Source: Planctomycetota bacterium (GTDB lineage Bacteria > Planctomycetota > Planctomycetia > Pirellulales > Pirellulaceae). From it: a DNA stretch of 56,189 nucleotides. Both the position numbers and the translations under genes were made by a program. The notes under the pieces were generated by a model. The model was given only the letters and a program-made list of their open reading frames with translations, ran no database searches and was not told where the DNA came from. The first letter of the stretch is position 1. Every line of letters begins with the position of its first letter. The stretch covers positions 1 to 56,189 of the forward strand of contig CAUJKL010000933.1 in assembly GCA_963204995.1 (NCBI GenBank). Reading direction: 5' to 3'. Shown in pieces: positions 3,311-45,732 of this stretch.

Positions 3311-3645
3311 ATTGTGGGCACGCTTCCGCCATCGGCTATGTGAAGGATGCGGGAGTCGTGGCACTTCGTTGTCGTGGCTCCGTCGTTGATCATGTTGACA
3401 AATTGCAACATGGGAGTTGCTGAGAGGACGCGTTCGTGTCGCTGGGAGATAAGTGCGACGCGACTTAAGTTGTTGTCAGACCTCGACTCATGCGGCGACA
3501 TCACCGTCGTTGGCGCGCTTGGCATCGTGTTTGCTTCTACGATAGAGCCATGATGATTTTCTTCATCAACCCGCTCTCCGTCGCCGTTTCACGTTTTGTG
3601 ACACGGTCTCATCCAGCGGCGCGAGAATCAACCGAGGCTGTCGCC

Positions 3646-4284
3646 ATGAACAAACCGTGTAGCCTGATTCCCCTGTTTCTAATCGCTTGCTGGATCGGTC
3701 CCGCATCGGCCGGAGACTGGGTCACGGAACCTTCGTATTACACGCACGATCCCATGTCTGGCGAACGCGTCACCCAGTACACACCCATCGGGCCGTTCTA
3801 TACCTACGGCCAATCGAGCTTTACTCGTAGCGGCTATCGCAATACGCGGAGCAGTCTGCAAGTTGGCACTAGCGCCGATAACTACCACACGACGGAACAG
3901 TGGGGACCGCCAGTACAGCCTTATGGCGAATGGCGTTTCCCCTATCGTCCCTACTCGGTTCCTTATGGTCAGTGGGGACCGCAATTCTACGGCGGCGTTC
4001 CGTTTGGACTCTACCCGAGGGGATTCGGTGGTGGCTACGGGGGTGGCGGTTATGGCGGCGGGGGATATCCTGGCGTTGGATTTCCAGGCGGCGGAAATTT
4101 TCCGCCCGGCCAAGGCGGTATGCAGCAGCCACCGTATTCAGGGCCGAACCCGTTACAGCCTGGCTATAGTGGTCAACAACAATTGCTGGATGGTCGCTAT
4201 CCGCCGTTTGATAACCTCGGCCCGTTCGAGAAGAAGCAACTGTTCGATCACCTGTATCCGCCGCAGCCCGGTGTCGGGAATTGA
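3646..4284 (+). CDS. secreted Gly/Tyr/Pro-rich low-complexity protein
   Basis: Signal peptide MNKPCSLIPLFLIACWIGPASAGDW, followed by GGGYGGGGYGGGGYPGVGFPGGGNFPPGQGGMQQPPYSGPNPLQPGYSGQQQ. Start set at ATG 3646, inside the longer ORF-track frame. Confidence 0.65.
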   Translation: MNKPCSLIPLFLIACWIGPASAGDWVTEPSYYTHDPMSGERVTQYTPIGPFYTYGQSSFTRSGYRNTRSSLQVGTSADNYHTTEQWGPPVQPYGEWRFPYRPYSVPYGQWGPQFYGGVPFGLYPRGFGGGYGGGGYGGGGYPGVGFPGGGNFPPGQGGMQQPPYSGPNPLQPGYSGQQQLLDGRYPPFDNLGPFEKKQLFDHLYPPQPGVGN

Positions 4285-27972: not shown

Positions 27973-28037
27973 GGGGGTATTGTAACAGCACGAAGGCAGC
28001 CCCACGATGTTAGTTGCATTTTGCGAGGAGATCCGGC

Positions 28038-29000
28038 ATGCCATTGGGAATCAAGCCGACCGTCGACTTTGCGTTCAAAAAGATCTTCGGCAGTCCGGAG
28101 AGCGCCGACGCTTTGATCGGATTGCTGAACGCGATCCTCGCACTGCCCCGTCCGATCACACAAGTCGACGTCCGCAATCCGTTCAACTATCAGGAGTTTG
28201 CGGAAGACAAGTTGATTGTATTGGACATTCGGGCGTTAGATTCGACGGGCCGCTGGCTGAACATCGAGATGCAGGTTTCGATCGCAAGCGGGTTACTCCA
28301 GCGGCTGGCGTACTACGCTTGCAGCCTGTACGTCGATCAGTTGAAGTCCGGCAAAAACTATGTGTCGTTACAGCCCGCGATTTCCATTTGTCTCTTAAGT
28401 GCCGTGCTGTTTCACGACACCGCCACAGCCCACCACCGGTTTCGGATGTGCGATCCTGACCAGGGCAAAGAGTTGCCGAACGCGGTTGAAGTACACACCG
28501 TCGAGCTAACGAAGTATACTTTGGGGGAGGATACGATCGGTCAAGCCAGTAAGATCGAGCAATGGGCGTTCTTCCTGTTGTTTGCTGATCAGTACGAGCC
28601 ACGGCGATTACGCGAGTTGCTTCCCGAAGTCGAGTTTCAGGAAGCGATCACGATCGTCGAACAGATTGCATGTAAAACCGAGGACCGAACCATGTACGAT
28701 CAACGCGAGAAAGCTGAACGGGACCATCAATGGCGACTAGAGGGTGCCCTCAATGCGGGGCTCGAGCAGGGGCGCGAGCAGGGGCGCGTGCAGGGGCTCG
28801 AGCAAGGACGCGTGCAAGGGCTTGAGCAAGGACGTGAAGAAGGCCGTCGGCAAGGTGTCGTCGCCGGGAAGATTCAAGTTATGCAGCAACTGCTGGGTGA
28901 ACCGGAGAGGTCATTGGACGATCTACTACAACAGCCTTTGCAGGAACTCACTCGTTTGTTGGCCGAATTGCAAGAACGACTACGCGTACGTGGTGGCTGA
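28038..29000 (+). CDS. Rpn family recombination-promoting nuclease / PD-(D/E)xK putative transposase
   Basis: MPLGIKPTVDFAFKKIFGSPESADALIGLLNAIL is the family N-terminus. Nuclease core: DKLIVLDIRA...WLNIEMQV. GAGGAG 7 nt upstream of the ATG. The C-terminus has an EQGR-type repeat. Confidence 0.85.
   Translation: MPLGIKPTVDFAFKKIFGSPESADALIGLLNAILALPRPITQVDVRNPFNYQEFAEDKLIVLDIRALDSTGRWLNIEMQVSIASGLLQRLAYYACSLYVDQLKSGKNYVSLQPAISICLLSAVLFHDTATAHHRFRMCDPDQGKELPNAVEVHTVELTKYTLGEDTIGQASKIEQWAFFLLFADQYEPRRLRELLPEVEFQEAITIVEQIACKTEDRTMYDQREKAERDHQWRLEGALNAGLEQGREQGRVQGLEQGRVQGLEQGREEGRRQGVVAGKIQVMQQLLGEPERSLDDLLQQPLQELTRLLAELQERLRVRGG
28757..28856 (+). repeat. 15-nt-periodic tandem repeat encoding (L)EQGR(x) units inside the Rpn gene
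   Basis: GLEQGREQGRVQGLEQGRVQGLEQGREEGRRQG; the nucleotide units ctcgagcaggggcgc / gagcaggggcgcgtg / ... were read directly. Confidence 0.8.
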
Positions 29001-33446: not shown

Positions 33447-35927
33447 ATGGCGAAGCAAATCAAACGCTGCTGGGGAATCGACATTGGACAATGCGCCATT
33501 AAAGCGCTTCGCTGCACACTGGAAGGCGATCAGATTGTCGCCGACGCGTTCGACTATATCGAGTATCCGAAGATTCTGAGCCAGCCGGAAGCCGAACCGG
33601 AGCTACTCATCAAGGAAGCACTCGAAACATTCTTGTCACGCAACGAGATTTCGCGACTTAACGACAAAGTCGCGATTTCCGTTCCCGGTCAAAGCGGCCT
33701 CGCAAAGTTCTTCAAGCCGCCTCCGGTCGACGTGAAACGCTTGCCGGACATCTGCCGCTTTGAAGCCAAGCAACAGATTCCGTTCCCGCTCGAGGAAGTT
33801 ATCTGGGACTTCCAACAACTTGCGGGCGGGCAAGTGATCGATGGCTTTGCAATCGATACGGAAGTGGGCCTGTTCGCGATGAAACGCGAGCAAGTGCATC
33901 GCGCACTGCGGCCCTTCGAGACCGCTGACATTCAGTTAGACATGGTCCAGCTGGCTCCGATTGCCATCTATAACTTCGTCTCGCACGACATCCTGACTGA
34001 TGGTCCTGACGAGGATATGTTTGACCCCGACGACCCGCCGGAGTCGATCGTCGTGCTCGCCATGGGAACCGATGCCACCGACTTAGTGGTGACCAACGGT
34101 TTTCGTATGTGGCAGCGCAGTATTCCGCTAGGCGGCAACCACTTCACCAAGCAGTTGACTAAGGAATTGAAGCTGACTTTCGCGAAGGCAGAGCATCTAA
34201 AACGCAACGCGCGACAAGCCGAAGACCCAAAGACTGTCTTCCAGGCGATGCGACCGATCTTTAATGATCTCGTCACGGAAGTACAGCGATCGATTGGCTT
34301 CTTTCAGGGCATCGATCGCAAGGCGAAGATTCGGGGCGTTGTGCTGCTTGGCAATACCGTCAAACTGCCTGGTTTACAGCAGTACATCTCGAAGAATCTC
34401 GGCTACGACGTACTTGAATTTGATTCGTTTAAGGAGCTGTCTGGCGCGTCGGTGATCGGTTCACCTCAGTTCTCCGAGAACGTGCTGGCCTACGGCGTGA
34501 GCTACGGCCTCTGTCTGCAAGGGCTCGGTAAATCACGCCTTTCGACCAGCCTCTTGCCTCGCGAGATCCTGACCAAGCGTGCAATCAAGGCAAAAAAGCC
34601 GTGGGCGGTCGCTTCGGTCGGGGCGTTGCTGCTGGCTTGCTCCTTCAATTTCTTCTTCCATTACAACATCGTGTCGAAGGTCAAGGCCGATTATCAACAA
34701 GGTGGCGTGGCGTGGAGTCAGGGCGAGTCGAAGATCACTCAGGTCAAGCAAACGAGTGATGGCTATGTAAGTGAACATGCCGTTAAAGAAGCTCAGCAGG
34801 CGTTTGTCCGCGAAATCGGCGAAGAGGTCGTAGGCTCGGGTGACCGGCGTCTGTTGTGGTTAGAGCTGATGACGGCGCTGAACAAATCGCTGCCCTGGCC
34901 TAAGGGAGTGCAACCGGGAGAATACGTCGACTACAAGACCTTGCCGATGGATGAACGCCCCGTTCTCTACATCGATTATATCGAGTCGGAATACTTTGCC
35001 GATTTAACAACGTGGTACACGGCCCGTGTTGCGAATAGCTATTTCGAGTTGACGAGGCACTTGAAGGCGAATCGCGAAGGTCGACAGCTAGAAGAGACGG
35101 AAACCGTTGAGTCGACAGAGAATCTTGACCAACTAGTCGCTGGAGCCGAAGCACTTCCCGGTCCAACAGGAGCTGGCTGGGTGATCGAGCTCAGTGGCCA
35201 CCACTATTTCAATAAGTCTCGGCAGTTTGGCAGCTTGAACCATATTCGCAATACGATTTTGAGGTTCCTTGAGGAAGGCAGCCTTAACTTGCCCATCAAT
35301 ACCCAAGGTGATCTCAGAACCTTTACGATGAAGGAACTTGGCATCTCGCATCCGATTCTGGCAGCGAACGGAGGCGAGCCTAAACCGGTTCGCGTTCCGA
35401 ACCCGGACGTCCAAGGCGCGGCAGCGAGCGTGGTGGCAGGCTCAGAGATGTATGGTGCCGGAGGTGGCGAGGGATATGCTGCTCCGGGAGGTGGTTTTGG
35501 TGCCCCGATGGCAGCGGGAGCACCAGTTGGTGGCCCCGCCGGCGCACCCGCCAAAGACGACGCAGAGGTGGTCCCTGCTTTTTTCGATGTCAAGGAAACA
35601 ACATTTACGATCCAATTCTGCTGGACGCCGAAAACGCTGAGTGAACGTCTGGCAGCCCAAGAAGAAGCGGCTCGCCTGAAAGCAGCGGCGGATGCCGAGG
35701 CAGCTGCTAATGCACCTCCGGTCACGGCTAACGATGGCGCTACCGAAAACGCAGCGCCAGCAGGTGCCGCACCCGCAGTGGCACCGGAAGGCGCAGCACC
35801 GGCGGAGGCTGCGCCGGTAAATCAAGTGCCAGCAGGTGCAGCCGAACCACCGGCAGGGGCAGCAGGTGTAGCCGAACCACCGGCAGGGGCAGCCGAGCCA
35901 GTAGGGGCCGTTGAGGCTGGAACATAA
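33447..35927 (+). CDS. pilM: PilM-type actin-like ATPase fused via a TM helix to a large periplasmic region (PilM-PilN/GspL-like topology)
   Basis: CWGIDIGQCAIKAL, ISVPGQSGLAKFF and RFEAKQQIPFPLEEVIWDFQ match PilM. TM helix WAVASVGALLLACSFNFFFHY at nt ~34602-34670. Then ~420 aa ending in G/M/Y and Ala/Pro/Glu low complexity. GGAG 8 nt upstream of the ATG. Confidence 0.8.
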   Translation: MAKQIKRCWGIDIGQCAIKALRCTLEGDQIVADAFDYIEYPKILSQPEAEPELLIKEALETFLSRNEISRLNDKVAISVPGQSGLAKFFKPPPVDVKRLPDICRFEAKQQIPFPLEEVIWDFQQLAGGQVIDGFAIDTEVGLFAMKREQVHRALRPFETADIQLDMVQLAPIAIYNFVSHDILTDGPDEDMFDPDDPPESIVVLAMGTDATDLVVTNGFRMWQRSIPLGGNHFTKQLTKELKLTFAKAEHLKRNARQAEDPKTVFQAMRPIFNDLVTEVQRSIGFFQGIDRKAKIRGVVLLGNTVKLPGLQQYISKNLGYDVLEFDSFKELSGASVIGSPQFSENVLAYGVSYGLCLQGLGKSRLSTSLLPREILTKRAIKAKKPWAVASVGALLLACSFNFFFHYNIVSKVKADYQQGGVAWSQGESKITQVKQTSDGYVSEHAVKEAQQAFVREIGEEVVGSGDRRLLWLELMTALNKSLPWPKGVQPGEYVDYKTLPMDERPVLYIDYIESEYFADLTTWYTARVANSYFELTRHLKANREGRQLEETETVESTENLDQLVAGAEALPGPTGAGWVIELSGHHYFNKSRQFGSLNHIRNTILRFLEEGSLNLPINTQGDLRTFTMKELGISHPILAANGGEPKPVRVPNPDVQGAAASVVAGSEMYGAGGGEGYAAPGGGFGAPMAAGAPVGGPAGAPAKDDAEVVPAFFDVKETTFTIQFCWTPKTLSERLAAQEEAARLKAAADAEAAANAPPVTANDGATENAAPAGAAPAVAPEGAAPAEAAPVNQVPAGAAEPPAGAAGVAEPPAGAAEPVGAVEAGT

Positions 35928-35938
35928 GGAACAGAATC

Positions 35939-37597
35939 GTGGATCAAGTAAAACAAGTACTCGCAGTCTTGAATACGCAGAAATTCTGGGTCACCTGCGG
36001 ATTTTTGACCCTGCTGCCGGTCGGCATTTGGTTTGTCGCCAAGTCTGCGCTCGACAAAGAATTCGAAGCGCGCAAGACCGCGATTACTACGGCCTATACG
36101 ACGGCAAAAAACATTGAGGGCATTCCTGATCACCCCAATCCGATTTCAGCGAAAGGGATGGACGAGAATCTCGGCAAGCTAAAAAAGAGCGTTTTTGATG
36201 CGTGGCAGGCACAGTACGAAGAGCAAAAACAGATTCTCGTCTGGCCCAAGGAGTTGCGACGCGATTTTATAGCCATGGTCGATCCGCTACGACCAATCGA
36301 GGAGAAAGTGACGTTTCCCACGCCTGCCGTTTATGAACTCCGACCTGAAATGCGCGAAGAATATCGCGACTACATTAAGGCCGAATTGCCTAAACTCGCG
36401 CAGATCATAGGCGCGCAATGGGGCAGCACTGCTCAGGTTGCTCAAGGTGACATGGCGGGAAGCGGAACTGGTGGATACGGTTCAGGCGGCGCGTCTCGTT
36501 CGGCCGCTGCGGAGAATGTCATTGTGCAATGGGACGCCAGCGACCAGTCGCGGTTGGTTTCACGCTTTGATTGGTCTCATACCTCCGACAAATTACCTCA
36601 AACCTTGGATATTCTTTATGCCCAAGAGGATCTCTGGATCCTGAATGCGGTCATGAACATCATCAAGCGGACGAATCGAGATGCTACAGCGAGCTATGAT
36701 GCGACAATCAAGGAGCTGAAATACGTACAGTTGGGGCAAGCGGTACGTGGAGCGGTTGGCAAGGTAACACGTTTGACTGGGGCGGCTGCGAGTGGCGGCG
36801 ACATGGGAGAAGGAGCGATGTACGGCAGCATGATGGACGGCAGCATGATGGACGCTGGCGCGATGGGTGGCGCAGGTGCAGATATGGGAAGTGGTGGCGC
36901 TATGGGCATGCCTGGCAGCGAGGGAATGGGTGCAACTGCCAGCAGAGACCCTGCCGATTTACGATACGTGGACAATAACTACGTTCCGCTCCCTGCAACT
37001 CGTGTTCGCACCGCGCTCAGCCCTGACGGCAAGAGCCCTGACGACGCCTTTTTGGTGGTGGCGAAGCGAGTGCCGATACGAATCGGCTTAACGATGGATC
37101 AACGGCGTATTCATCGCCTAGTGACTGAATGCGGCAACTCGACACTGATGGTGGAAGTTCGCCAAGTTCGTGTCAATCGCCAGTCGCCACCTACAGGCGG
37201 GGCTGGAGGTATCGGCTATGGTGGTGAGTCCGGTGGTGGATTTGGCGGTGGGTTCGGAGGTGGCGGCGGATTCGGCGGCGGATTTGGTGGCGGTGGATTT
37301 GGGAGTGGCGCTTCGGGTCCGGGAGGCGAAATGGGAGGAATGGGAATGGAAATGGAAATGGGGATGGGAAGCGGGTACGGAGGCGGAGCAGGTGCTACCG
37401 CATCGCTGAAGTCGAGCTATGACCTTCCCGTTGAACTCTATGGGATCATCTACATCTACAATCCTGTCGCCGAAAAGAAACTCGGTATCGAACTTAAAGA
37501 AGCGGATCCGGATGCCGCTCCGGCGGAGCCAGCGGCCCCCGAACCGGTTGCCGTTGAAAAGGCCGCCCCACAGGATATGGCCATGGCTGTTAATTAG
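35939..37597 (+). CDS. bitopic membrane protein with Gly/Met/Phe low-complexity tracts, unknown function (pilus/secretin cluster)
   Basis: GTG start 11 nt after the PilM stop (AAGGAA upstream). N-terminal TM FWVTCGFLTLLPVGIWFVA. LCRs at nt 36781-36935 and 37186-37400. Confidence 0.75.
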   Translation: MDQVKQVLAVLNTQKFWVTCGFLTLLPVGIWFVAKSALDKEFEARKTAITTAYTTAKNIEGIPDHPNPISAKGMDENLGKLKKSVFDAWQAQYEEQKQILVWPKELRRDFIAMVDPLRPIEEKVTFPTPAVYELRPEMREEYRDYIKAELPKLAQIIGAQWGSTAQVAQGDMAGSGTGGYGSGGASRSAAAENVIVQWDASDQSRLVSRFDWSHTSDKLPQTLDILYAQEDLWILNAVMNIIKRTNRDATASYDATIKELKYVQLGQAVRGAVGKVTRLTGAAASGGDMGEGAMYGSMMDGSMMDAGAMGGAGADMGSGGAMGMPGSEGMGATASRDPADLRYVDNNYVPLPATRVRTALSPDGKSPDDAFLVVAKRVPIRIGLTMDQRRIHRLVTECGNSTLMVEVRQVRVNRQSPPTGGAGGIGYGGESGGGFGGGFGGGGGFGGGFGGGGFGSGASGPGGEMGGMGMEMEMGMGSGYGGGAGATASLKSSYDLPVELYGIIYIYNPVAEKKLGIELKEADPDAAPAEPAAPEPVAVEKAAPQDMAMAVN

Positions 37598-37696
37598 TGC
37601 CGAAACGGATTTTACATATCCTGCCTGCTGGCGGAGATGTTATGCTGATGCAAGACGAGATCGACAGGGGATGGATCAAGTTTAGGAGCCAATGTA

Positions 37697-39922
37697 ATGG
37701 CAAAATTGAAACTCGATAAAGAATCACTGCAACGCTTTTTTTTCAATCACACCGAAAAAATCGTGCTCGCGGTCGTTATTCTGTTGCTCGGATTGTTTAT
37801 CTGGAGCGGTTCAAGTCTCGAAGGAATCGGTGCCCAAAATCCGGCGGAACTTGCCAGCAAAGTCGAGGCAGTTGCCAAGAAGATCGAGGCACCAACTTGG
37901 GACAATGTCAAAGAGAAATACGTCCCCGTGTTGGACCATGTTGGGCGTAAGCAAATTGGCGATGCCGCAACGTCGGAAAGCTACTATCGACTGGACACAC
38001 CCTTGATCGGCAGCCCGCCGAACTCCGCAACTCCTCGACAAGATCCAGAAATCTTTGCCGTCACCGACGTCGAGGCGACCGTTGTCACCGCGGCGATCGC
38101 GTTCAAAGCCCGACCGGGCTTGATCGACCCCTTTATGGATCTCGCGAATTTCGAACAGGAAAAGATTGAGGCTCCCAAGAAGAAGCCAAAGAAGAGTAAG
38201 AAGAACACAGCGGGTGGGAGTTATGGCGAAGAGATGGCGATGATGATGGAAGACGAGGCCATGGCGGGTGCCTCGGGTAGCATGATGAGCGAAGGTATGG
38301 GAGCGTACGGCTCAGGAGCGTACGGCGCAGGAGCGATGGGAGGTGTCCCAGCTGGCCCAACCGTCCGGGCAGACGCGAATAAATTCCACGGCTATCAACC
38401 CACGGCAACTTCAACCGCCACCGGTTCGTCCGTAATCGGCTATACCAAACACCTCGTTTCGGTGAGAGGGCTCGTGCCCTACCAACAACAATGGGACGAA
38501 TTCGAACGCGTGTTTGCCGACGCTGCCGGCTATATGCCATCGCGAGACATCCCCAAATACCTCTCGTTTCGGGCCCAGCGTGCGGAAGTCCCAAGCGATC
38601 CGAACGAACCCTTGAAATGGGGTTGGATCTCCTGGACAGCCGGGGTTCTTACCGATCTCCCGAAGAAGGGTTGGGCAGGTTTTCCTGGCGAAATCGCCGA
38701 TTCGAAGTATCTACTCCACGGCGTTTTGACGATGCCCGTGCCGCCGGTAATGATGCGTGACCTCCGACCGTTAGCCCTGCATTCGAAAGTGCCCATGCAA
38801 CTAGAGGAAAAGGTACAGGCGGTGGCACGAACGGGCCCTGAATTAGTCAACGTCGACGAGGTTGGCGGCGTGGCCGATATCGACGACTTGCCGCCCGTAC
38901 CGGGAGCCCGCCCAGGAGTTGGAGCGGGCGGTGCAGGTATGTACGGAAGTGACGGCGGCATGTATGGAAGTGGTGGCGGCATGTACGGAAGTGGCGGCGG
39001 CATGATGGGGATGACCGGAGAGGGCTACGGGGCAGGAATGGGGGGAATGGGGTACGACATGGGAATGGGTGGCACGGGTTTGCAACAAGTTCGCGGCCCG
39101 CAAGCCGAGTTCCTGATGGTCCGTTTCTTTGACGAGATCGCACCCGGCAAGAAGTACGTGTACCGAATTCAAGTTGTGTTAGAGGATCCCAATCATCCTC
39201 AATTCCCGCAGCAGGAGCCGCAGAGCCGCATTTTGGCCGACACCGTCCGCACACGGCTCGCCAACGTCGCGGCCGAAGAAGTCAAGCAAACGGCTGCTAA
39301 AAAGACGCCCATTCGGCTCTTCTCGTTGACCACGGAGTGGAGTGAACCTACCGCTCCGGTCTTCGTCAAGCCACAGTCGGAAATCTATGCGGGCGGTGTT
39401 ACGCTGCCGCTCATGCGTGATATTCTGCGTAGCACAGAACCCAATCAACTACAAAAAACTGGGTACACGCTTCCTGCGGACGGCGAGCCGACCGCCCAGG
39501 TCATGAACCTATCGTGGAGCTCGAAGTATGCAGTCGACATGCCTGGCATTTTGAAAGCGTCGAGAGGCTCCTTTCTCAACCAATCGATCGAAGCGGATGT
39601 TATTGATCCAGTCACGATGGTCTACAAGGTGGTTCCCGATTATAAGCTCTCATCGAACGAGCTCGTTATCGATCTCCGCGGCGGCGAGATCCTTCAACCG
39701 GCAGCGGGAGAGGTAAAAGCACTTTTGACGCCCGGTGAAGTCGCCGTCATCGACGCGCGTGGGAATTTCGTCGTTCGCAATGAATTGGACGACTGGCAGG
39801 CCTTTGATAAATACGCTCCTCCAGCCCCCCTTGTGGTCGAAGCAGCTCCGACCGCGAGCGACGGATACGGTGGCGAGACCATGGACTACGGGGCCTACGG
39901 TGCCGGTCCTAGCGGACCGTAG
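37697..39922 (+). CDS. bitopic membrane protein with Gly/Met/Tyr low-complexity tracts, unknown function (pilus/secretin cluster)
   Basis: AGGAG upstream of the ATG. N-terminal TM IVLAVVILLLGLFIWSG. KKKPKKSKKN patch, then LCRs at nt 38210-38344 and 38897-39078. Confidence 0.75.
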   Translation: MAKLKLDKESLQRFFFNHTEKIVLAVVILLLGLFIWSGSSLEGIGAQNPAELASKVEAVAKKIEAPTWDNVKEKYVPVLDHVGRKQIGDAATSESYYRLDTPLIGSPPNSATPRQDPEIFAVTDVEATVVTAAIAFKARPGLIDPFMDLANFEQEKIEAPKKKPKKSKKNTAGGSYGEEMAMMMEDEAMAGASGSMMSEGMGAYGSGAYGAGAMGGVPAGPTVRADANKFHGYQPTATSTATGSSVIGYTKHLVSVRGLVPYQQQWDEFERVFADAAGYMPSRDIPKYLSFRAQRAEVPSDPNEPLKWGWISWTAGVLTDLPKKGWAGFPGEIADSKYLLHGVLTMPVPPVMMRDLRPLALHSKVPMQLEEKVQAVARTGPELVNVDEVGGVADIDDLPPVPGARPGVGAGGAGMYGSDGGMYGSGGGMYGSGGGMMGMTGEGYGAGMGGMGYDMGMGGTGLQQVRGPQAEFLMVRFFDEIAPGKKYVYRIQVVLEDPNHPQFPQQEPQSRILADTVRTRLANVAAEEVKQTAAKKTPIRLFSLTTEWSEPTAPVFVKPQSEIYAGGVTLPLMRDILRSTEPNQLQKTGYTLPADGEPTAQVMNLSWSSKYAVDMPGILKASRGSFLNQSIEADVIDPVTMVYKVVPDYKLSSNELVIDLRGGEILQPAAGEVKALLTPGEVAVIDARGNFVVRNELDDWQAFDKYAPPAPLVVEAAPTASDGYGGETMDYGAYGAGPSGP

Positions 39923-40305: not shown

Positions 40306-43300
40306 TTGAAAGCGATCTGTAAGGTTTCGTTCGGATGCATCGCCTTGGCGATCACACTGCCACCAGCCGCATTCGCAGAAAGCCATTCCGTGATCACAGC
40401 GATCGCCAACGCGAATGCCGCGTTCGGCCAAACCGCTTCCGCCGATGAAGCCGCTCGCCGCCGCGAGGCGGACCAGTGGTTACGGCAAGCACGCCAGGCG
40501 CTGGAGGACGGCAAGCCGGATGTCGCCGAGTACTGCGTCGACCGCGCCGAAAAGTTCAACGCCAGTTTTGACTCGGTACTGTCACGATTCGCCGACACAC
40601 CAGCCAAAGTGCGACGCGACATCGACGCCGCACGCGGTTCTGGTCCCACTCGGCCGCAAGTGCCAAGCCAACAGTTTGCTCCAGGGTCGCCACCCGCCAA
40701 CGGTTTGTCGACAACTGCAACGGGCAACGCGGCACCCGGAAAGGACCAGGTGCTGAATCAAATGACAAACACTGGCAAGGCACAAGCCAGCGATTACCTT
40801 CAACGAGGCCGTCAAGCTCTGCAGCAAGGTGACAAGACGGCAGCCCTGTCGTGGTATCAACGCGCGGTTGCGACAGGTGCTTCGTTCGCGCCAGGCGAGT
40901 TCTCTCCCGTCCATTTTGCATCGGAGCTGCAACGGGCCGGAGTTGATATCAGCCGCATCGCGCAGCTCCAACCTGCCCCCGCGTTCGCCACCAATCCAGC
41001 GGACTTTGCTCCGCGCGAGCTGGATCGTCTGCCGGCAATTAAGCCAATGCCCTCGAACGCCGATAGCGCTTTCGAAGGAGGCCTTGTCACCAACCCGACA
41101 CAACTTGCCGGCGGTTCGCAATTCGGCAATGCCGCGCCAGCGAGTCCTCAAAAGTTGGCAGCGATGCGATTACTTGCCCAAGCTCAAGCCGCTTTGGGAC
41201 GTGGCGATTTGCGTGCGGCCAACGAATTCGCCGAACAAGCCCAAGCGATTCGAGTTCCAGAGCAGGAGTTCTCACAGGGAGAAACGCGACCTTGGGAGTT
41301 GCTGCTCCAGATTCGCAGTCAGTTGAATCGTCAGGGAGGTTCCGGTGTCATCCCCGCCGGGAATTTCGAAACGGTTCCTGAGATGGCCAATGGCGGTGCT
41401 CAGCCAAATCGTTCGCCGATTAGCCAAGGAATCTACACACCAGAATCAGACTCGACTCGCAATCGTTACGCGCAAGCCGAGATCCCCACGCCTGCTCTTC
41501 GTCCTGCCGATAGTTCGGCTGGATTGCAGATCTATCGTGAGGGGTTGCGAGCGTTGGAAGCTCAAGATCGTGATGAAGCCCTACGGTTATTTCGCAATGC
41601 GTGGCAGTATCAACAAGAATTCGATCCGCTCACACGACAAGACTTGAAGGACAAGCTCAGCCTGTTGAGCGCGGCTGGAAATCGTCCGCTTCGTGAACCG
41701 TCGCCCTTAGAAGAAGTCAACGCACAGCAAGAGTTACTCCGCCAACAACTGTTCCGCGAGATCTCCAACGAAACCAAAGAAGCCGAACAAATGGTGCAAT
41801 CGGACCCTCGGGGAGCGTTGCAGCGCGTCACGAAACTTCGCGAACGTGTGTCGCAAGCCGAAGTTGATCCAGGTGCGAGACGCCAGCTCCTGACCATCGT
41901 CGATCAAGAAGTTGCAAGCATCGAAGCATACATCCGACAGAACGAGGGTGACATCGTTTTGAAGGAGCGAAATCGCCAAGTCGTCGACTCGATCGATCGC
42001 GATCGTGCCGCAAAAATCGACGTGCAACAGAAAGTTGCTCAGTTGGTCGAGGAGTTCAATGACTTGCTCGACCAAGAACGACATGCGGAGGCAGAAGTCC
42101 GCGCTCGCCAAATCCGCGAACTCGATCCCGAGTCGCCTGTCACACGCTTGGTGACGATGAAGAGCAAGTTCGCCAGTCGTATGCAACGGAACCAATGGAT
42201 CGCCGACCAGAAGGAAGACGGGTTTGTCAAGAATATGCAAGACACGGACGCGGCTTCGATTGCGACGGTCGGCGACGACCATCCGATCGACTTCGGCGAC
42301 AAAACTCGTTGGGATCAGCTGTCGCGAACCCGTCTCGAACAACTCGAAATGCAGCAACGACGTCTTTCGCCGGTTGAGATGGAAATTCAAAACACGCTGA
42401 AGAAACCTGTTGACGTTAATTTCAACAATCGGCCTTTGAAAGAAGTGCTCGATACCCTCGCCAGCATTTCCGGAGTCAATATCTACGCCGATCCACAAGG
42501 GCTCGCGGCAGAGGGAGTTACGAGCGATACGCCCGTAAACATCACGTTGACTCAGGCCATCTCGTTACAAAGTGCCCTGAATCTGATTCTCGAACCGCTG
42601 CGTCTGAGCTACGTCATCCAAAACGAAGTGCTTCGGATCACGAGCGAACAACTACGCGACTCGAATGTCAAACCGCAGGTCTACAACGTGGCAGACCTGG
42701 TCATTCCGATCCCGAACTTCATTCCCGGCTACAACGTTGGGCTCCCGTCTGCGATCCGAGAAGCTCACACTGCTCTCGGATATGGCGGTGTTGCACCGTC
42801 GGTATCAATGGCTCCATTGACGGTGGCGTCCAACGACATGCAAGGCGGTGGTCCAGCGAGCGCTTCGGCACTCGCGCAAATGAGTACCTATGGCGGCCTT
42901 CCACAGGGGAGCAGGTCACGCCCTTCGCAACCGTTGGGTTATGGTGCCGGCAGCATGGGCGGAGCCGCATTGGCTGACTTTGATACGCTCATTCAATTGA
43001 TTACATCAACGATCAAGCCGGACACCTGGGACGAAGTGGGTGGCCCCGGTGCGATCGAGCCGTTTCCCACGAACTTGAGCTTGGTCATTAGTCAGACACA
43101 GGATGTTCACGAGCAGATCGCGGACCTCCTCGAACAGCTCCGGCGCTTGCAGGACTTGCAAGTGACGATCGAAGTCCGCTTCATCACTCTGCGTGACGAC
43201 TTCTTCGAGCGAATTGGCGTCGACTTCGACTTCGATGTCGACGACAACGTCACCACCTTGCCTCCAGACGATTCGGGACCGAGTGTTGCTATCGGCTTGA

Positions 43301-44112
43301 CGCCAACGGGAGTCCCGACGGCCGACTTCGACTATTCGTTCACCCAAGATAGCTTCAGCCTTACCACTCCGGCATTCGGAGGATTTGGAACCGGTGCAGG
43401 AGCCGCGAACTTTGGTTTTGCGATCCTGAGCGACATCGAAGCATTTTTCCTCGTCCAAGCGGCCACCGGAAGTAATCGCAGCAATGTGTTGGCTGCCCCG
43501 AAGGTCACGCTGTTCAACGGTCAGCAGGCGTCTGTCAGTGACGTTTCGCAACGCCCGTTCGTGACCAGCTTGATCCCGGTCGTCGGCGACTTTGCCGCCG
43601 CCCAACAGCCGGTGATCGTAGTCCTCAGCGAAGGGACTTCCCTCGGCGTCCAAGCCGTCGTCTCTTCCGATCGCCGATTTGTCAGACTGACGCTGGTTCC
43701 ATTCTTCAGCCAGATCGGTGAAGTCGAGGAGTTTACTTTCGACGGAACTACGACGACAAACACGGGCTCGAACGTCGTCGATGCAACCGGCAAACCGACC
43801 GGCGACAAAGACAATACGATAACTACGACGCAAGGCACGACAGTTCAGCTGCCCACCTTCTCCTTCACGACCGTATCGACGACCGTGAGTGTACCGGATG
43901 GCGGAACGGTTTTGCTGGGCGGCATCAAACGCCTGTCCGAAGAACGCAAGGAACAAGGCGTGCCGATGCTGAACAAGATTCCGTACGTCAACCGGCTGTT
44001 CAAGAACGTAGGTATCGGTCGAGCGACAACCAGCCTGATGCTGATGGTGACGCCTCGAATCATCATTCAGGAGGAAGAGGAAGAGAAAATGGGCATCGAG
44101 ATCATTCCATAA
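40306..44112 (+). CDS. secretin (PilQ/GspD family) with ~700-aa N-terminal helical-repeat and coiled-coil extension
   Basis: TTG start 8 nt after AAGGAG. Signal peptide ...LPPAAFAESH. STN/N0-like KKPVDVNFNNRPLKEVLDTLASISGVNIYADP. C-terminal secretin core SVPDGGTVLLGGIKRLSEERKEQGVPMLNKIPYVNRLFKN...MLMVTPRII. Confidence 0.9.
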   Translation: MKAICKVSFGCIALAITLPPAAFAESHSVITAIANANAAFGQTASADEAARRREADQWLRQARQALEDGKPDVAEYCVDRAEKFNASFDSVLSRFADTPAKVRRDIDAARGSGPTRPQVPSQQFAPGSPPANGLSTTATGNAAPGKDQVLNQMTNTGKAQASDYLQRGRQALQQGDKTAALSWYQRAVATGASFAPGEFSPVHFASELQRAGVDISRIAQLQPAPAFATNPADFAPRELDRLPAIKPMPSNADSAFEGGLVTNPTQLAGGSQFGNAAPASPQKLAAMRLLAQAQAALGRGDLRAANEFAEQAQAIRVPEQEFSQGETRPWELLLQIRSQLNRQGGSGVIPAGNFETVPEMANGGAQPNRSPISQGIYTPESDSTRNRYAQAEIPTPALRPADSSAGLQIYREGLRALEAQDRDEALRLFRNAWQYQQEFDPLTRQDLKDKLSLLSAAGNRPLREPSPLEEVNAQQELLRQQLFREISNETKEAEQMVQSDPRGALQRVTKLRERVSQAEVDPGARRQLLTIVDQEVASIEAYIRQNEGDIVLKERNRQVVDSIDRDRAAKIDVQQKVAQLVEEFNDLLDQERHAEAEVRARQIRELDPESPVTRLVTMKSKFASRMQRNQWIADQKEDGFVKNMQDTDAASIATVGDDHPIDFGDKTRWDQLSRTRLEQLEMQQRRLSPVEMEIQNTLKKPVDVNFNNRPLKEVLDTLASISGVNIYADPQGLAAEGVTSDTPVNITLTQAISLQSALNLILEPLRLSYVIQNEVLRITSEQLRDSNVKPQVYNVADLVIPIPNFIPGYNVGLPSAIREAHTALGYGGVAPSVSMAPLTVASNDMQGGGPASASALAQMSTYGGLPQGSRSRPSQPLGYGAGSMGGAALADFDTLIQLITSTIKPDTWDEVGGPGAIEPFPTNLSLVISQTQDVHEQIADLLEQLRRLQDLQVTIEVRFITLRDDFFERIGVDFDFDVDDNVTTLPPDDSGPSVAIGLTPTGVPTADFDYSFTQDSFSLTTPAFGGFGTGAGAANFGFAILSDIEAFFLVQAATGSNRSNVLAAPKVTLFNGQQASVSDVSQRPFVTSLIPVVGDFAAAQQPVIVVLSEGTSLGVQAVVSSDRRFVRLTLVPFFSQIGEVEEFTFDGTTTTNTGSNVVDATGKPTGDKDNTITTTQGTTVQLPTFSFTTVSTTVSVPDGGTVLLGGIKRLSEERKEQGVPMLNKIPYVNRLFKNVGIGRATTSLMLMVTPRIIIQEEEEEKMGIEIIP

Positions 44113-44719: not shown

Positions 44720-44763
44720 AAAGTCCATCTTATTTGTTGATTCTTACTAGTAGAGGACTGAAC

Positions 44764-45732
44764 ATGAAACGGAAATCGGGATTTACGCTTGTCGAACTCT
44801 TGGTGGTCATTGCGATCATCGGAATTTTGGTGGCGCTCTTGTTGCCCGCCGTGCAAGCGGCTCGTGAAGCGGCACGCCGTATGAGTTGTAGCAACAACCT
44901 AAAGCAGCTTGCCTTGTCGTTTCATAATTACCACGACACCTATAAGAAGTTCCCCGCCTATCAGTACCCGGTTGCCAATACGAACTCTTGGCAAGGCCAC
45001 GGCCCTTTGACGATGGTTCTCCCTTTTATGGAACAGCAACCGCTCTACGACAAAATTGATTTTACGCGGGCGTGGGACGCGGTTGCGAGCGTGCGGCAAG
45101 CAAGTATACCGGCGTTCAATTGTCCTTCGGACTTGGCATTTCCGAACCTTGCCTACGGAGGTACTAACTATGGTGTGCAAGCAGGTTCACGACGAGATGT
45201 CTACTCCACTGGCAGTCCGAATGAAGCGAGTGGCGCAATGACTCGCCGACATGATACTCCGATGGCTAACCTCACCGACGGCACCTCAAACGTGATCATG
45301 GTGGGAGAGTTCCTGCACGGGGATGATAATGGCGGGCAACGCACGTTGAAGCGCGATGTGACGAATTCTCTGGCAACTGGATGGGATCTGTGGCCGACGC
45401 AAACGAACCTTGAAACGTACGGCACCGCCGCTGACGCCAATTCTTATCAGGTGAGTAATGCAGGGCGCGATTGGATGGCGAGTTTTCCGGGTCAAACGGT
45501 GTTCACCACCCAAGCACCGCCCAACTGGAAGCATACCTCCGTGTGTGACGGCGGTGGGTTCGGTTACGCGTGCGACCGCAACGGAATCTTTCCTGCACGA
45601 AGTTTACATCCCGGCGGCGTACAAATTGGACTAGCGGATGGATCGGTTCGGTTCGCCCCGGAAACGGTCGATTTGTTGACGTGGCAACGTATGGGCGCGC
45701 GGGGCGATGGAAACCCTGTCCAGCTACCCTAA
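44764..45732 (+). CDS. DUF1559 family protein with prepilin-type N-terminal cleavage/methylation domain (H-X9-DG)
   Basis: [49 protein letters not shown]; C-terminal SLHPGGVQIGLADGSVRF; GAGGA upstream of ATG 44764. Confidence 0.92.
   Translation: MKRKSGFTLVELLVVIAIIGILVALLLPAVQAAREAARRMSCSNNLKQLALSFHNYHDTYKKFPAYQYPVANTNSWQGHGPLTMVLPFMEQQPLYDKIDFTRAWDAVASVRQASIPAFNCPSDLAFPNLAYGGTNYGVQAGSRRDVYSTGSPNEASGAMTRRHDTPMANLTDGTSNVIMVGEFLHGDDNGGQRTLKRDVTNSLATGWDLWPTQTNLETYGTAADANSYQVSNAGRDWMASFPGQTVFTTQAPPNWKHTSVCDGGGFGYACDRNGIFPARSLHPGGVQIGLADGSVRFAPETVDLLTWQRMGARGDGNPVQLP

What the first reader, a model, noticed from the sequence alone, without database searches (positions are those of the whole stretch)
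36781..39078. Gly/Met/Tyr/Phe low-complexity tracts in consecutive periplasmic components
Seen in sequence: the 552-aa protein carries GDMGEGAMYGSMMDGSMMDAGAMGGAGADMGSGGAMGMPGSEGMG (36781-36935). It also carries GGFGGGFGGGGGFGGGFGGGGFGSGASGPGGEMGGMGMEMEMGMGSGYGGG (37186-37400). The 741-aa protein carries GSYGEEMAMMMEDEAMAGASGSMMSEGMGAYGSGAYGAGAMGG (38210-38344). It also carries GMYGSDGGMYGSGGGMYGSGGGMMGMTGEGYGAGMGGMGYDMGMGG (38897-39078, including 3 x 21-nt tandem repeats at 38939-39001). The PilM fusion has a shorter EMYGAGGGEGYAAPGGGFGAPMAAG tract (~35440-35520). All lie after the single TM helix, so they are presumably periplasmic. Met-rich glycine tracts are unusual in pilus alignment proteins. 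Inference: cohesive disordered domains, resembling FG or GY hydrogel-forming sequences, that fill or gate the space under the secretin. The alternative is Met-motif Cu(I)-binding tracts like those of periplasmic copper-resistance proteins.
Basis: partly seen in the sequence, partly recalled or inferred. Interest (0 to 1): 0.7.

Follow-up and report, generated by a model that had tools for sequence, protein, structure and literature searches.

The report
Co-evolving Gly/Met disordered loops, pilus machine
Three neighbouring membrane proteins of a planctomycete pilus-type machine carry floppy glycine/methionine/tyrosine-rich loops at fixed sites, and the loop compositions change together across species, so the loops probably act as one rubbery or sticky mesh in the periplasm rather than being junk or copper binders.

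Summary
The operon is PilM-TM fusion > p552 > p741 > giant secretin. It is the Pirellulales counterpart of the Akkermansia Amuc_1101-1098 type IV pilus-like cluster. p552 is an Amuc_1100/PilO-like protein.

Its two main tracts are disordered insertions in the two beta-hairpins of the (alpha-beta-beta)x2 core, not inter-domain linkers. The tracts hold 29-43% Gly and 10-17% Met against 2% Met elsewhere, with almost no Lys/Arg/His. Most of about 80 species genomes carry them at the same sites. Only 1 of 391 flanking ORFs has such a tract.

The new result is that insert compositions co-vary across genomes between different proteins. For M+Y+F, rho is 0.89 and sister-pair contrasts give 0.90. Neither GC content nor the rest of the proteins explains this.

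Met ranges from 0 to 24% and trades off with Tyr/Phe. About 10-15% of orthologs have inserts of another flavour. This argues against Cu(I) binding as the conserved role and against independent neutral slippage.

It favours jointly acting sticker-spacer loops, with composition like the scallop elastomer abductin. Gelation, gating and elasticity remain untested.

The parts
33447..35927 (+). PilM-TM-periplasmic fusion protein (826 aa): cytoplasmic PilM actin-like domain aa 10-358, TM 386-404, periplasmic part, A/P/E-rich C-terminal tail
   Evidence: Pfam PilM_2 E=2.7e-30. TIGR01175 133.8 bits against a cutoff of 133, and Amuc_1101_fam E=2.2e-49 but below its cutoff. Hydropathy.
35445..35519 (+). 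Short G/Y/M/F tract in the periplasmic part of the PilM fusion (aa 667-691)
   Evidence: The insert at this site co-varies in M+Y+F with the p552/p741 inserts across 55 genomes, rho 0.62, p=4e-7. 31 of 78 orthologs pass the tract criterion.
35939..37597 (+). p552: bitopic Amuc_1100/PilO-like protein. TM 16-34, long helices, then an (alpha-beta-beta)x2 core split by disordered inserts
   Evidence: AlphaFold2 model. Foldseek top hits are Amuc_1100 (prob 0.85-0.96, target TM 0.53-0.60), then PilO. Family member P0115 and Amuc_1100 proteins both carry the precomputed Pfam family PF28028.1.
36431..36496 (+). p552 weaker tract 0 (aa 165-186, G/S/A-rich, pLDDT below 50)
36755..36931 (+). p552 insert 1 (disordered aa 273-327; G/M core aa 287-331), in the first beta-hairpin of the core between E257-265 and E375-387
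   Evidence: Family pool is G 28.6%, M 13.0%, K+R 2.6%.
37196..37402 (+). p552 insert 2 (disordered aa 420-488; GGF repeats then GM/EM repeats, aa 433-483), in the second beta-hairpin between E405-412 and E495-507
   Evidence: Family pool is G 38.1%, M 9.6%, Y 4.6%, F 2.6%. Amuc_1100 has a ~45-aa P/A-rich insert before its last strand; placing it at the same topological site is my reading of the sequence and strand pattern.
37697..39922 (+). p741: bitopic protein of unknown fold, in the positional equivalent of Amuc_1099. TM 22-40, mixed alpha/beta region, beta-rich C-terminal domain aa 543-714
   Evidence: AlphaFold2. No Pfam, NCBIfam or PDB match. Always follows p552 in related genomes.
38192..38353 (+). 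p741 insert 1 (disordered aa 166-219; G/M/Y core aa 174-216), preceded by a Lys-rich patch
   Evidence: Family pool is G 33.0%, M 15.9%, Y 5.2%.
38807..39088 (+). p741 insert 2 (disordered aa 371-464; G/M/Y core aa 414-459), including the 21-nt x 3.1 tandem repeat at 38939-39004 that encodes GMYGSGG
   Evidence: Family pool is G 42.8%, M 17.5%, Y 6.3%.
39845..39919 (+). p741 C-terminal G/Y/M/acidic tail (aa 717-741), with a 9-nt repeat at 39886-39904
   Evidence: The 99%-identical P0121 differs by a YGA indel here. The tail is longer in distant orthologs.
40306..44112 (+). Giant secretin (1268 aa) with signal peptide, ~1000-aa N-terminal extension and C-terminal secretin domain
   Evidence: Pfam Secretin E=5.9e-23. 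GspD, PilQ and Amuc_1098 models all hit below their cutoffs. Signal-peptide-like N-terminus.

Best explanation
The four genes encode the Pirellulales version of the PVC-type type IV pilus-like machine that spans the cell envelope. It corresponds to the Akkermansia Amuc_1101-1098 cluster. The parts are a PilM-TM fusion, an Amuc_1100/PilO-like protein (p552), a lineage-specific bitopic protein (p741) and a giant secretin.

The Gly/Met/Tyr/Phe tracts are predicted to be intrinsically disordered loops inserted at fixed sites. In p552 they sit in both beta-hairpins of the PilO-like core. In p741 they sit between beta elements and at the C-terminus. One more sits in the periplasmic part of the PilM fusion.

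They have a sticker-and-spacer design. Met, Tyr and Phe are flanked by Gly and spaced more evenly than chance. Lys, Arg and His are almost absent and the tracts are mildly acidic.

Inference: the alignment proteins assemble as rings of many copies, so dozens of such loops are crowded in the periplasmic part of the machine. There they contact each other through weak multivalent Met/aromatic interactions and form a cohesive, rubber-like mesh. Its composition resembles the Gly/Met/Phe elastomer abductin.

Inference: the mesh gives the machine mechanical compliance and cohesion, or a self-sealing packing around the fibre path. This would suit a cell whose inner membrane tends to pull away from the wall.

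Shown here: identity of the proteins, disorder, insertion topology, conservation and co-evolution. Inferred only: loop-loop contacts and the mechanical or sealing role.
For: Identity:
- PilM_2, TIGR01175 and Secretin domains are present.
- Foldseek top hits for p552 are Amuc_1100, then PilO.
- PF28028.1 is precomputed both for the p552 homolog P0115 and for Amuc_1100 proteins.
- The Akkermansia cluster is given as Amuc_1098 (secretin PilQ) - 1099 - 1100 - 1101 - 1102 in PMC10688800. Amuc_1101 is PilM-like per the NCBIfam model name.
- The order pilM > p552 > p741 (> secretin) holds in 70 of 80 species loci, all Planctomycetota and mostly Pirellulaceae.

Disorder and topology:
- pLDDT is below 50 in the tracts, between elements with pLDDT above 90.
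- The secondary-structure order is H222-246, E257-265, [insert], E375-387, H388-399, E405-412, [insert], E495-507.
- Foldseek alignments span 376-446 columns against targets of 173-197 residues.

Conservation:
- 72 of 81 p552 orthologs and 57 of 70 p741 orthologs carry at least one tract. Only 1 of 391 flanking ORFs does.
- 103 of 127 further cluster representatives carry one.
- Pooled tract composition is G 29-43% and M 10-17.5%, against M 2.1-2.2% in the rest. K+R is about 1-3% against 12%. His is about 0.

Old at the DNA level:
- All four Gly codons are mixed within the repeats.
- Tracts in different genes share only 15-18-nt matches.

Sticker pattern:
- M/Y/F/W spacing is more even than in shuffles in 91-96% of orthologs for the second tracts.
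- Stickers are mostly flanked by Gly: GMG, GGM, GYG.
- M and Y/F/W anticorrelate in the p741 family, rho -0.75. The CV of M+YFW is 0.16, against 0.32 for M and 0.52 for YFW alone.

Acting together:
- Insert compositions of p552 and p741 co-vary across 61 genomes: M 0.80, Y 0.83, M+Y+F 0.89. The non-insert parts give rho -0.11 to 0.21.
- 30 sister-pair contrasts give M 0.82, Y 0.88 and M+Y+F 0.90.
- Controlling for GC leaves the values unchanged.
- The PilM-fusion insert also co-varies, rho 0.62.
- 3-mer sharing between the proteins exceeds composition-matched shuffles, mean z 1.9.

Analogy: abductin has a Gly/Met-rich domain with consensus GGFGGMGGGX and random-coil rubber elasticity (PMC13052691).

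Context: planctomycete crateriform structures are described as press-stud-like links between outer and inner membrane that carry pili-like fibres, in cells with an enlarged periplasm (PMC5394234).
Against: - No experiment or computation here shows loop-loop contacts, gelation or elasticity.
- I could not see model coordinates or PAE. Which way the loops point (lumen, peptidoglycan or membrane) is therefore unknown.
- Stoichiometry is assumed from other type IV pilus machines.
- About 10-15% of orthologs keep inserts at the same sites with few stickers: S/G/L, acidic G/E, or short K/E/S. Amuc_1100 has a P/A-rich insert. Sticker chemistry is therefore not universal. The only property common to all is a disordered insert.
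- Co-variation could reflect a shared external pressure, for example oxidation of periplasmic Met, rather than mutual contact.
- In the p552 family the M versus Y/F trade-off is weak (rho -0.20, not significant).
- Foldseek E-values for Amuc_1100 and PilO are weak (0.1-0.5). hhalign of the p552 family against Amuc_1100 was not significant.
Confidence: 0.45

Rival explanations
1. Non-cohesive entropic loops. The inserts act only as flexible, space-filling bristles or spacers. They could keep peptidoglycan or periplasmic proteins away from the ring, or set the spacing between rings. Their exact chemistry would matter little beyond being disordered and soluble.
For: - Every ortholog examined has an insert at these sites, but about 10-15% have few Met or aromatic residues.
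- Amuc_1100 has a P/A-rich insert before its last strand, read as the same site.
- Insert lengths vary from 40 to 135 aa.
- Met ranges from 0 to 24%.
Against: - A chemistry-indifferent role does not predict the tight co-variation of M, Y, S, P and M+Y+F between inserts of different proteins.
- It does not predict the constant M+YFW sum in the p741 family.
- It does not predict the even sticker spacing.
- It does not predict the motif sharing beyond composition.
Confidence: 0.25
2. Tolerated junk. The tracts are slippage-prone low-complexity expansions in surface loops that can accept anything. Their composition is set by mutational processes and has no function of its own.
For: - Short tandem DNA repeats lie inside the tracts: 21 nt x 3.1, 15 nt x 2.5, 9 nt x 2.
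- A 3-aa indel in a tract separates proteins that are 99% identical.
- Length and composition vary widely among orthologs.
Against: - Five sites in three proteins change composition in parallel. Neither GC content nor the composition of the rest of the same proteins explains this.
- Only 1 of 391 neighbouring ORFs has such a tract (47).
- Synonymous Gly codons are scrambled within perfect amino-acid repeats. The repeats are therefore old and kept at the protein level.
- No long DNA identity between tracts points to gene conversion.
- The same genes carry A/P/E-rich tails of a different flavour (30-nt repeat at 35830-35893). The G/M type is therefore not the local default.
Confidence: 0.15
3. 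Metal or redox chemistry. The Met-rich tracts bind Cu(I)/Ag(I) like the Met motifs of periplasmic copper-resistance proteins, or they serve as sacrificial Met sinks for oxidants at the machine.
For: - Met reaches 13-17% in the tracts, with MxM, MxxM and MxxxM spacings present.
- The location is periplasmic by inference.
- Parallel loss or gain of Met in all inserts could follow habitat copper or oxidant levels.
Against: - His and Cys are essentially absent.
- Met is under 3% in 11 of 61 genomes, which still keep the inserts.
- Met is exchanged for Tyr/Phe in the p741 family. That fits hydrophobic stickers, not thioether ligands.
- The GGF repeat block has no Met at all.
- No Pfam hit to a copper-handling or Msr family among the ten flanking window ORFs scanned.
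- The feature is tied to one pilus-type operon in about 150 species.
Confidence: 0.07

Closest known systems
Akkermansia muciniphila Amuc_1098-1102 type IV pilus-like cluster, in particular Amuc_1100 (PDB 6KNY, 6LAD, 6LAF; Pfam PF28028)
   Same: - The PilM-like and secretin components hit the NCBIfam Amuc_1101 and Amuc_1098 family models, but below their cutoffs.
- If p552 stands for Amuc_1100 and p741 for Amuc_1099, the gene order PilM > p552 > p741 > secretin matches the published cluster listing read in reverse.
- Amuc_1100 is the best structural match to p552.
- A p552 family member carries the same precomputed Pfam family, PF28028.1, as Amuc_1100 proteins.
- Amuc_1100 also has a disordered-looking low-complexity insert before its last beta-strand.
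   Different: - Both NCBIfam hits are far below the equivalog cutoffs: 168.8 bits against 650, and 63.3 against 750.
- p552 is about 1.7 times longer than Amuc_1100.
- Its inserts are G/M/Y/F-rich and there are two to three of them. Amuc_1100 has a P/A-rich insert and a short acidic one.
- p741 has no detectable relative in the libraries searched.
- The secretin is 1268 aa.
Canonical type IVa pilus alignment subcomplex PilM/PilN/PilO/PilP with secretin PilQ (e.g. P. aeruginosa PilO 2RJZ/5UVR; Myxococcus machine model 3JC8)
   Same: - Cytoplasmic PilM domain.
- Bitopic partners with a short N-terminus, a TM helix, long helices and an (alpha-beta-beta)x2 core.
- A secretin encoded at the end of the operon.
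   Different: - PilM is fused to its membrane partner.
- No PilN, PilO or PilP sequence-family match.
- Large disordered inserts sit inside the core hairpins. They are absent from the PilO structures, which align over only ~135 columns.
Abductin, the Gly/Met/Phe elastomer of scallop hinge ligament
   Same: The composition and motif style are alike: Gly-rich, Met spread throughout, Phe, low Pro, predicted random coil. The abductin consensus is GGFGGMGGGX (PMC13052691). The window has GGFGGGFGGGGGFGGGFGGGGFG followed by GGEMGGMGMEMEMGMG.
   Different: - No homology and no shared decapeptide.
- The bacterial tracts are 45-100-aa loops within folded proteins, not a bulk cross-linked material.
- They are more acidic and richer in Ser/Ala.
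- Elasticity is untested.
FG-nucleoporin and prion-like sticker-spacer domains (cohesive disordered phases)
   Same: Aromatic or hydrophobic stickers are evenly spaced in flexible spacers depleted of charge. Many copies would be anchored on a ring around a transport channel (inference).
   Different: - The spacers here are Gly-rich rather than N/Q/S/T-rich.
- Met is the main sticker.
- Phe is only 0.4-2.6% at family level.
- There is no evidence of a permeability barrier.
Met-rich Cu(I) motifs of periplasmic copper-resistance proteins (CueO/PcoA/CopA inserts, CusF/CusB). These are recalled from my own knowledge and were not looked up here.
   Same: High Met density in a periplasmic segment, with MxM and MxxxM spacings.
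   Different: - No His.
- Met is dispensable in some orthologs and exchangeable with Tyr/Phe in others.
- No copper-related Pfam hit among the ten flanking window ORFs scanned.

Membership tests
Type IV pilus alignment subcomplex (PilMNOP-PilQ) | PilM actin-like cytoplasmic ATP-binding domain | tested here: met
   PF11104 PilM_2 E=2.7e-30 over aa 10-358. TIGR01175 pilM 133.8 bits against a cutoff of 133.
Type IV pilus alignment subcomplex (PilMNOP-PilQ) | PilN/PilO: bitopic, with TM, coiled coil and a ferredoxin-like (alpha-beta-beta)x2 periplasmic core | tested here: inconclusive
   The AlphaFold2 secondary-structure order fits. Foldseek hits PilO (3jc8_Oa, 5uvr, 2rjz) at prob 0.80-0.87 but E 0.3-0.5. 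No PilN or PilO Pfam/NCBIfam hit.
Type IV pilus alignment subcomplex (PilMNOP-PilQ) | Outer-membrane secretin | tested here: met
   PF00263 Secretin E=5.9e-23 over aa 1056-1253. The PilQ and GspD equivalog models score below their cutoffs.
Type IV pilus alignment subcomplex (PilMNOP-PilQ) | PilP lipoprotein that links PilN/O to the secretin N0 domain | tested here: not met
   No PilP match. p741 has a TM helix rather than a lipobox and has no structural match. A PilP-like role for its beta-rich C-terminal domain is only a guess.
Type IV pilus alignment subcomplex (PilMNOP-PilQ) | Assembly of a pilus fibre (pilin, PilB/PilC/PilT) | not tested
   The Pfam scans of window ORFs gave no PilB, PilC or PilT hit, but the window was not scanned exhaustively. 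Only a DUF1559/N_methyl prepilin-like gene lies next door at 44734-45732.
Amuc_1100 family (Pfam PF28028) within the Amuc_1098-1102 cluster | Amuc_1100 fold | tested here: met
   The top six Foldseek hits are Amuc_1100 chains, prob 0.85-0.96, target-normalised TM 0.53-0.60, E about 0.1.
Amuc_1100 family (Pfam PF28028) within the Amuc_1098-1102 cluster | Match to the family HMM | tested here: inconclusive
   PF28028.1 is precomputed for the p552 homolog P0115 and for Amuc_1100 proteins. The Pfam copy available here lacks PF28028, so p552 itself gave no hit. hhalign against Amuc_1100 was not significant.
Amuc_1100 family (Pfam PF28028) within the Amuc_1098-1102 cluster | Neighbours are Amuc_1101-type PilM and Amuc_1098-type secretin, in the same order | tested here: met
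   Amuc_1101_fam E=2.2e-49 and Amuc_1098_fam E=1.2e-17, both below the equivalog cutoffs. Cluster listing from PMC10688800. The order is conserved in 70 of 80 loci.
Abductin-like elastomeric proteins | Gly/Met-rich random-coil domain with GGFGGMGGGX-type repeats | tested here: inconclusive
   The composition and the GGF and GM repeats are similar. The decapeptide itself is absent and there is no homology. This is a 'works like' comparison only.
Abductin-like elastomeric proteins | Rubber-like elasticity of the assembled material | not testable with these tools
   Needs force spectroscopy or rheology of the tracts or of the machine.
Periplasmic Met-motif Cu(I)-binding proteins | Clusters of Met (often with His) that form Cu(I) sites and are conserved among orthologs | tested here: not met
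   His is 0.0-0.1%. Met is under 3% in 11 of 61 genomes. Met trades off with Tyr/Phe.
Periplasmic Met-motif Cu(I)-binding proteins | Genomic association with copper homeostasis genes | tested here: not met
   The ten flanking ORFs scanned hit DUF1501, PSD1/PSCyt, a PD-(D/E)XK transposase, GH38-like, DUF423, DUF1559, TPR, FG-GAP and SMC-like families; one had no hit.
Periplasmic Met-motif Cu(I)-binding proteins | Measured Cu(I)/Ag(I) binding | not testable with these tools
   Needs ITC or BCA/BCS competition assays with purified tracts.
FG-nucleoporin-like cohesive barrier | Multivalent FG (or other aromatic) motifs in uncharged disordered spacers | tested here: inconclusive
   Five GF/FG motifs in p552 insert 2. 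Stickers are evenly spaced and K/R are depleted. Phe is minor at family level and Met dominates.
FG-nucleoporin-like cohesive barrier | Forms a selective permeability phase in a channel | not testable with these tools
   Needs in vitro hydrogel or condensate assays and in vivo leakage assays.

The most novel reading that the evidence does not exclude
The operon encodes the core of the planctomycete crateriform 'press-stud' complex, or a similar fibre-bearing machine that spans the envelope. Its co-evolving Gly/Met/Tyr loops would form a true periplasmic protein phase. That phase would be either a bacterial abductin-like elastomer or an FG-nucleoporin-like selective gel. It would hold the inner membrane to the wall, or gate macromolecule passage through a giant secretin. 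It would be the first material-like disordered phase built into a bacterial trans-envelope machine.
Probability: 0.12. Interest if true: 0.85.

Novelty: new variant of a known kind. Interest (0 to 1): 0.55.

Why it matters
Type IV pilus and secretion alignment complexes are normally pictured as rigid rings of folded domains. Here a large family has disordered sticker-spacer loops built into those rings. The family has about 3,200 clusters at 50% identity and covers about 150 species genomes, including cultured Blastopirellula, Bremerella and Anatilimnocola.

Loops in three different proteins change composition in step. Concerted compositional evolution of disordered regions across partner proteins is a rarely documented signature. 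It gives a purely genomic handle on which disordered regions work together.

If the loops form an elastic or cohesive phase, this would be a new design principle for envelope machines. It could also be a molecular lead to the unexplained crateriform structures and macromolecule uptake of Planctomycetes.

The work also places the much-studied Akkermansia protein Amuc_1100 in a wider PVC family whose hairpin inserts vary by lineage.

Tried and rejected
1. My first idea was that the tracts are in-series entropic-spring linkers between domains, spanning the enlarged periplasm. I rejected this for p552. The AlphaFold2 secondary-structure order and the Foldseek alignments show the tracts as insertions within the hairpins of one folded domain. 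For p741 insert 2 it remains possible.
2. Sequence searches of p552 and p741 against the PDB gave only artificial Gly-linker hits or nothing.
3. hhalign of the p552 family against the verified Amuc_1100 C-terminal sequence was not significant. It only aligned 24 columns of the wrong alpha-beta-beta repeat.
4. Foldseek with the full p741 model gave no meaningful match.
5. The Pfam and NCBIfam copies at hand have no model that hits p552 or p741.
6. I tested GC content as the cause of the co-variation and rejected it.
7. I tested recent gene conversion between tracts. Only 15-18-nt similarities were found.
8. Literature searches found no prior description of these tracts. They covered Planctomycetes plus type IV pili/secretin/PilM; Met-rich plus Gly-rich plus periplasm; and Met-rich plus type IV pilus plus disordered. 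The 'PilO' search mostly matched 'pilot'.
9. The homolog search with p741 returned only 24 hits, probably because low-complexity words saturated the candidate list. I recovered p741 orthologs from the genome loci instead.

Full report
**Observation.** The window has four co-directional genes:
- a PilM fusion, 33447-35927, 826 aa;
- p552, 35939-37597;
- p741, 37697-39922;
- a secretin, 40306-44112, 1268 aa.

The exact coordinates are 36797-36931, 37235-37387, 38216-38344, 38936-39073 and 35445-35519. Tandem Repeats Finder confirms a 21-nt x 3.1 repeat at 38939-39004 and several shorter repeats inside the tracts.

The best 30-residue window holds 28 G+M+Y+F residues in p552 and 25 in p741. Every other long ORF of the window reaches at most 14, except an unrelated G/Y protein at 3490-4284. 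Background Met is 1.5% and Gly 7.1%.

**What the genes are.**
- The first protein has a PilM domain: PF11104, E=2.7e-30; TIGR01175 just above its cutoff. It also hits NCBIfam's Amuc_1101 PilM-like family at E=2.2e-49, below the equivalog cutoff.
- The last protein has a secretin domain and weak PilQ, GspD and Amuc_1098 hits.
- p552 and p741 hit nothing in Pfam, NCBIfam or PDB sequences.
- The flanks are typical of Planctomycetota: DUF1501, PSD1/PSCyt and DUF1559.

An AlphaFold2 model of p552 built from 59 homologs has mean pLDDT 72.9. It shows an N-terminal TM helix, long helices, and then H222-246, E257-265, [disordered 273-327], E375-387, H388-399, E405-412, [disordered 420-488], E495-507. 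That is an (alpha-beta-beta)x2 core with both main tracts inserted in its hairpins.

Foldseek against the PDB ranks Amuc_1100 of Akkermansia first: prob 0.85-0.96, target TM 0.53-0.60. PilO follows. The alignments span 376-446 columns against targets of 173-197 residues, so the tracts are insertions relative to the known structures. E-values are weak, 0.1-0.5.

Three independent observations support the link:
- The p552 homolog P0115 and Amuc_1100 proteins carry the same precomputed Pfam family, PF28028.1.
- The published Akkermansia cluster listing is Amuc_1098 (secretin) - 1099 - 1100 - 1101 - 1102 (PMC10688800). Amuc_1101 is PilM-like per the NCBIfam model name. Read in reverse, that listing matches the window's gene order.
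- Amuc_1100 itself has a ~45-aa P/A-rich segment before its last strand; I checked its sequence against the PDB. I read that segment as occupying the same topological site as p552 insert 2.

The p741 model (pLDDT 69) has a TM helix, a mixed alpha/beta region, a beta-rich C-terminal domain and three disordered segments: 166-219, 371-464 and 717-741. It has no structural match.

**Topology.** Each of the three proteins has one hydrophobic segment.
- In the PilM fusion it follows the cytoplasmic PilM domain and has six K/R residues on its N side. The rest of the protein must therefore be periplasmic.
- p741 also fits N-in.
- p552 is assigned by analogy with PilO and Amuc_1100.
- The secretin has a signal peptide.

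All of this is inference, not experiment.

**Conservation.** p552 has 289 hits in the word-indexed database. A profile search of 1.84 billion representatives gives 3,198 clusters at E<=0.001 and 1,187 at E<=1e-30.

A scan of one genome per species found 153 relatives. The 80 kept are titled Planctomycetota (one Nitrosopumilus-labelled contig and one unassigned 'bacterium' MAG aside) and most are Pirellulaceae. They include the cultured Blastopirellula marina DSM 3645, Bremerella and Anatilimnocola. The order pilM > p552 > p741 (> secretin) holds in 70 of 80 loci.

Tracts occur at the same alignment positions down to 21-35% identity. Pooled compositions are:

| Segment | Gly % | Met % |
|---|---|---|
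| p552 insert 1 | 28.6 | 13.0 |
| p552 insert 2 | 38.1 | 9.6 |
| p741 insert 1 | 33.0 | 15.9 |
| p741 insert 2 | 42.8 | 17.5 |
| Rest of the proteins | 5-6 | 2.1-2.2 |

K+R is about 1-3% in the tracts against 12% elsewhere, and His is about 0.

Across the 80 loci, 72 of 81 p552 orthologs and 57 of 70 p741 orthologs pass a strict tract criterion. Only 1 of 391 flanking ORFs does.

The test is met in a minority. About 10-15% of orthologs have inserts at the same sites with a different chemistry:
- S/G/L 'SLGS' repeats in both proteins of L078;
- acidic G/E in L043, L057 and L068;
- short K/E/S in L038 and L058.

Strain-level slippage also exists. P0121, 99% identical to p741, differs by a YGA indel in the tail tract. 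Even so, Gly codons within the repeats are fully mixed. Most amino-acid repeats are therefore old at the DNA level.

**The new result: concerted evolution.** I aligned orthologs from 61 species genomes that carry both proteins and extracted the four inserts. Spearman correlations between the p552 and p741 insert compositions were:

| Residue(s) | rho |
|---|---|
| Met | 0.80 (p=2e-14) |
| Tyr | 0.83 |
| Ser | 0.75 |
| Pro | 0.77 |
| M+Y+F | 0.89 |

The non-insert parts of the same proteins do not correlate (rho -0.11 to 0.21). Same-genome composition distance is 0.215 against 0.303 between genomes (permutation p<=1e-4).

Thirty non-overlapping sister-pair contrasts keep the signal: M 0.82, Y 0.88, M+Y+F 0.90. 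Controlling for GC changes nothing, and every pair of sites correlates at 0.45-0.83 for M, Y and M+Y+F. The PilM-fusion insert co-varies as well (M+Y+F rho 0.62, p=4e-7).

Three-mer sharing between the two proteins exceeds composition-matched shuffles, mean z 1.9. DNA similarity between tracts in different genes is limited to 15-18 nt, so recent gene conversion is unlikely.

Met content of the inserts ranges from 0 to 24%, and 11 of 61 genomes are below 3%. In the p741 family Met anticorrelates with Tyr/Phe/Trp (rho -0.75) while their sum is far more constant. In the p552 family this trade-off is weak and not significant. Sticker residues are spaced more evenly than in shuffles, for 91-96% of orthologs in the second tracts.

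**Interpretation.** The tracts are conserved, disordered sticker-and-spacer loops built into the periplasmic parts of three consecutive alignment proteins, and they evolve as one unit. The simplest reading is that they contact each other, or a common partner, within the crowded ring of the machine.

Their composition is closest to abductin, whose Gly/Met-rich domain (GGFGGMGGGX) works as a random-coil rubber (PMC13052691). They share the sticker logic of FG and prion-like domains.

I therefore favour a cohesive, elastic mesh that gives the machine compliance or a self-sealing packing (confidence 0.45). This fits a cell type with an enlarged periplasm. In such cells, fibre-bearing crateriform structures act as press-stud links between the membranes (PMC5394234). 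No link between this operon and crateriform structures has been shown.

The rivals are:
- chemistry-indifferent entropic bristles (0.25), supported by the sticker-poor minority and by the P/A insert of Amuc_1100;
- tolerated slippage junk (0.15), contradicted by the co-variation;
- Cu(I) or redox chemistry (0.07), contradicted by the absence of His, by Met being dispensable, and by its exchange for Tyr/Phe in the p741 family.

A shared habitat pressure, for example Met oxidation, could explain the parallel shifts without loop-loop contact. I could not test this.

**Limits.**
- I had no access to model coordinates or PAE, so loop orientation is unknown.
- The structural link to Amuc_1100 and PilO rests on weak E-values plus context.
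- The comparative statistics use approximate phylogenetic control.
- Searches of the held literature found no prior description, but that library is incomplete.

**Verdict.** This is a new variant of a known kind of machine, with an unusual and testable feature. Interest 0.55.

Noticed in passing
window 3490-4284 (+): A 264-aa ORF with a hydrophobic signal-like segment and a G/Y/F/P/Q-rich low-complexity half (…GFGGGYGGGGYGGGGYPGVGFPGGGNFPPGQGG…). It has no Pfam hit. It is the only other protein in the window with a Gly/aromatic tract, and it has no Met enrichment.
   Followed up: partly
window 37697-37765 (p741 aa 1-23) and 35939-35990 (p552 aa 1-17): The short cytoplasmic N-termini are strongly conserved. 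In p741, F14, H18, E20 and K21 are near-invariant (motif FFFNHxEK). In p552, M1, D2 and K5 are near-invariant and F16 and W17 are invariant. They might be PilM-binding peptides analogous to the PilN N-terminus.
   Followed up: no
window 35750-35927 (PilM fusion C-terminus) and 37480-37597 (p552 C-terminus): Both proteins end in A/P/E-rich tails. A 30-nt x 2.1 tandem repeat lies at 35830-35893. This is a different flavour of low complexity from the G/M tracts within the same genes.
   Followed up: partly
window 40306-43470 (secretin aa 1-1055): The secretin has an N-terminal extension of about 1000 aa before the secretin domain. It has only weak STN and DUF1771 hints and a weak G/S/M-containing segment around aa 830-900. 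Only 5 of 22 secretin orthologs pass the tract criterion.
   Followed up: partly
P0115 and P0272-P0286: The precomputed Pfam family PF28028.1 is attached both to a p552-family protein and to Amuc_1100-family proteins. This accession is missing from the Pfam copy that can be scanned here.
   Followed up: partly
L078 8001-9599 and 9670-11715: In this Pirellulaceae MAG, p552 and p741 both carry 'SLGS/GSLG' Ser/Gly/Leu repeats instead of G/M tracts. It is a striking single-genome example of matched insert chemistry in two different proteins.
   Followed up: partly
P0111 (p552 homolog): Variant tracts rich in Cys as well as Gly/Tyr/Asp (…GGCGGYDMGEGGGCGGYD…). This suggests possible disulfide cross-linking of the loops in that lineage.
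   Followed up: no
L067 (contig CAXQOB010000205.1): A contig labelled as a Nitrosopumilus MAG carries a p552 relative (34% identity over residues 1-416). The contig is probably mis-binned.
   Followed up: no
window 44734-45732 (+) and 28014-29000 (+): A DUF1559 protein with a prepilin-type N-methylation motif lies just downstream of the secretin, after a DUF423 gene. A PD-(D/E)XK transposase-family gene lies upstream of the operon region.
   Followed up: no
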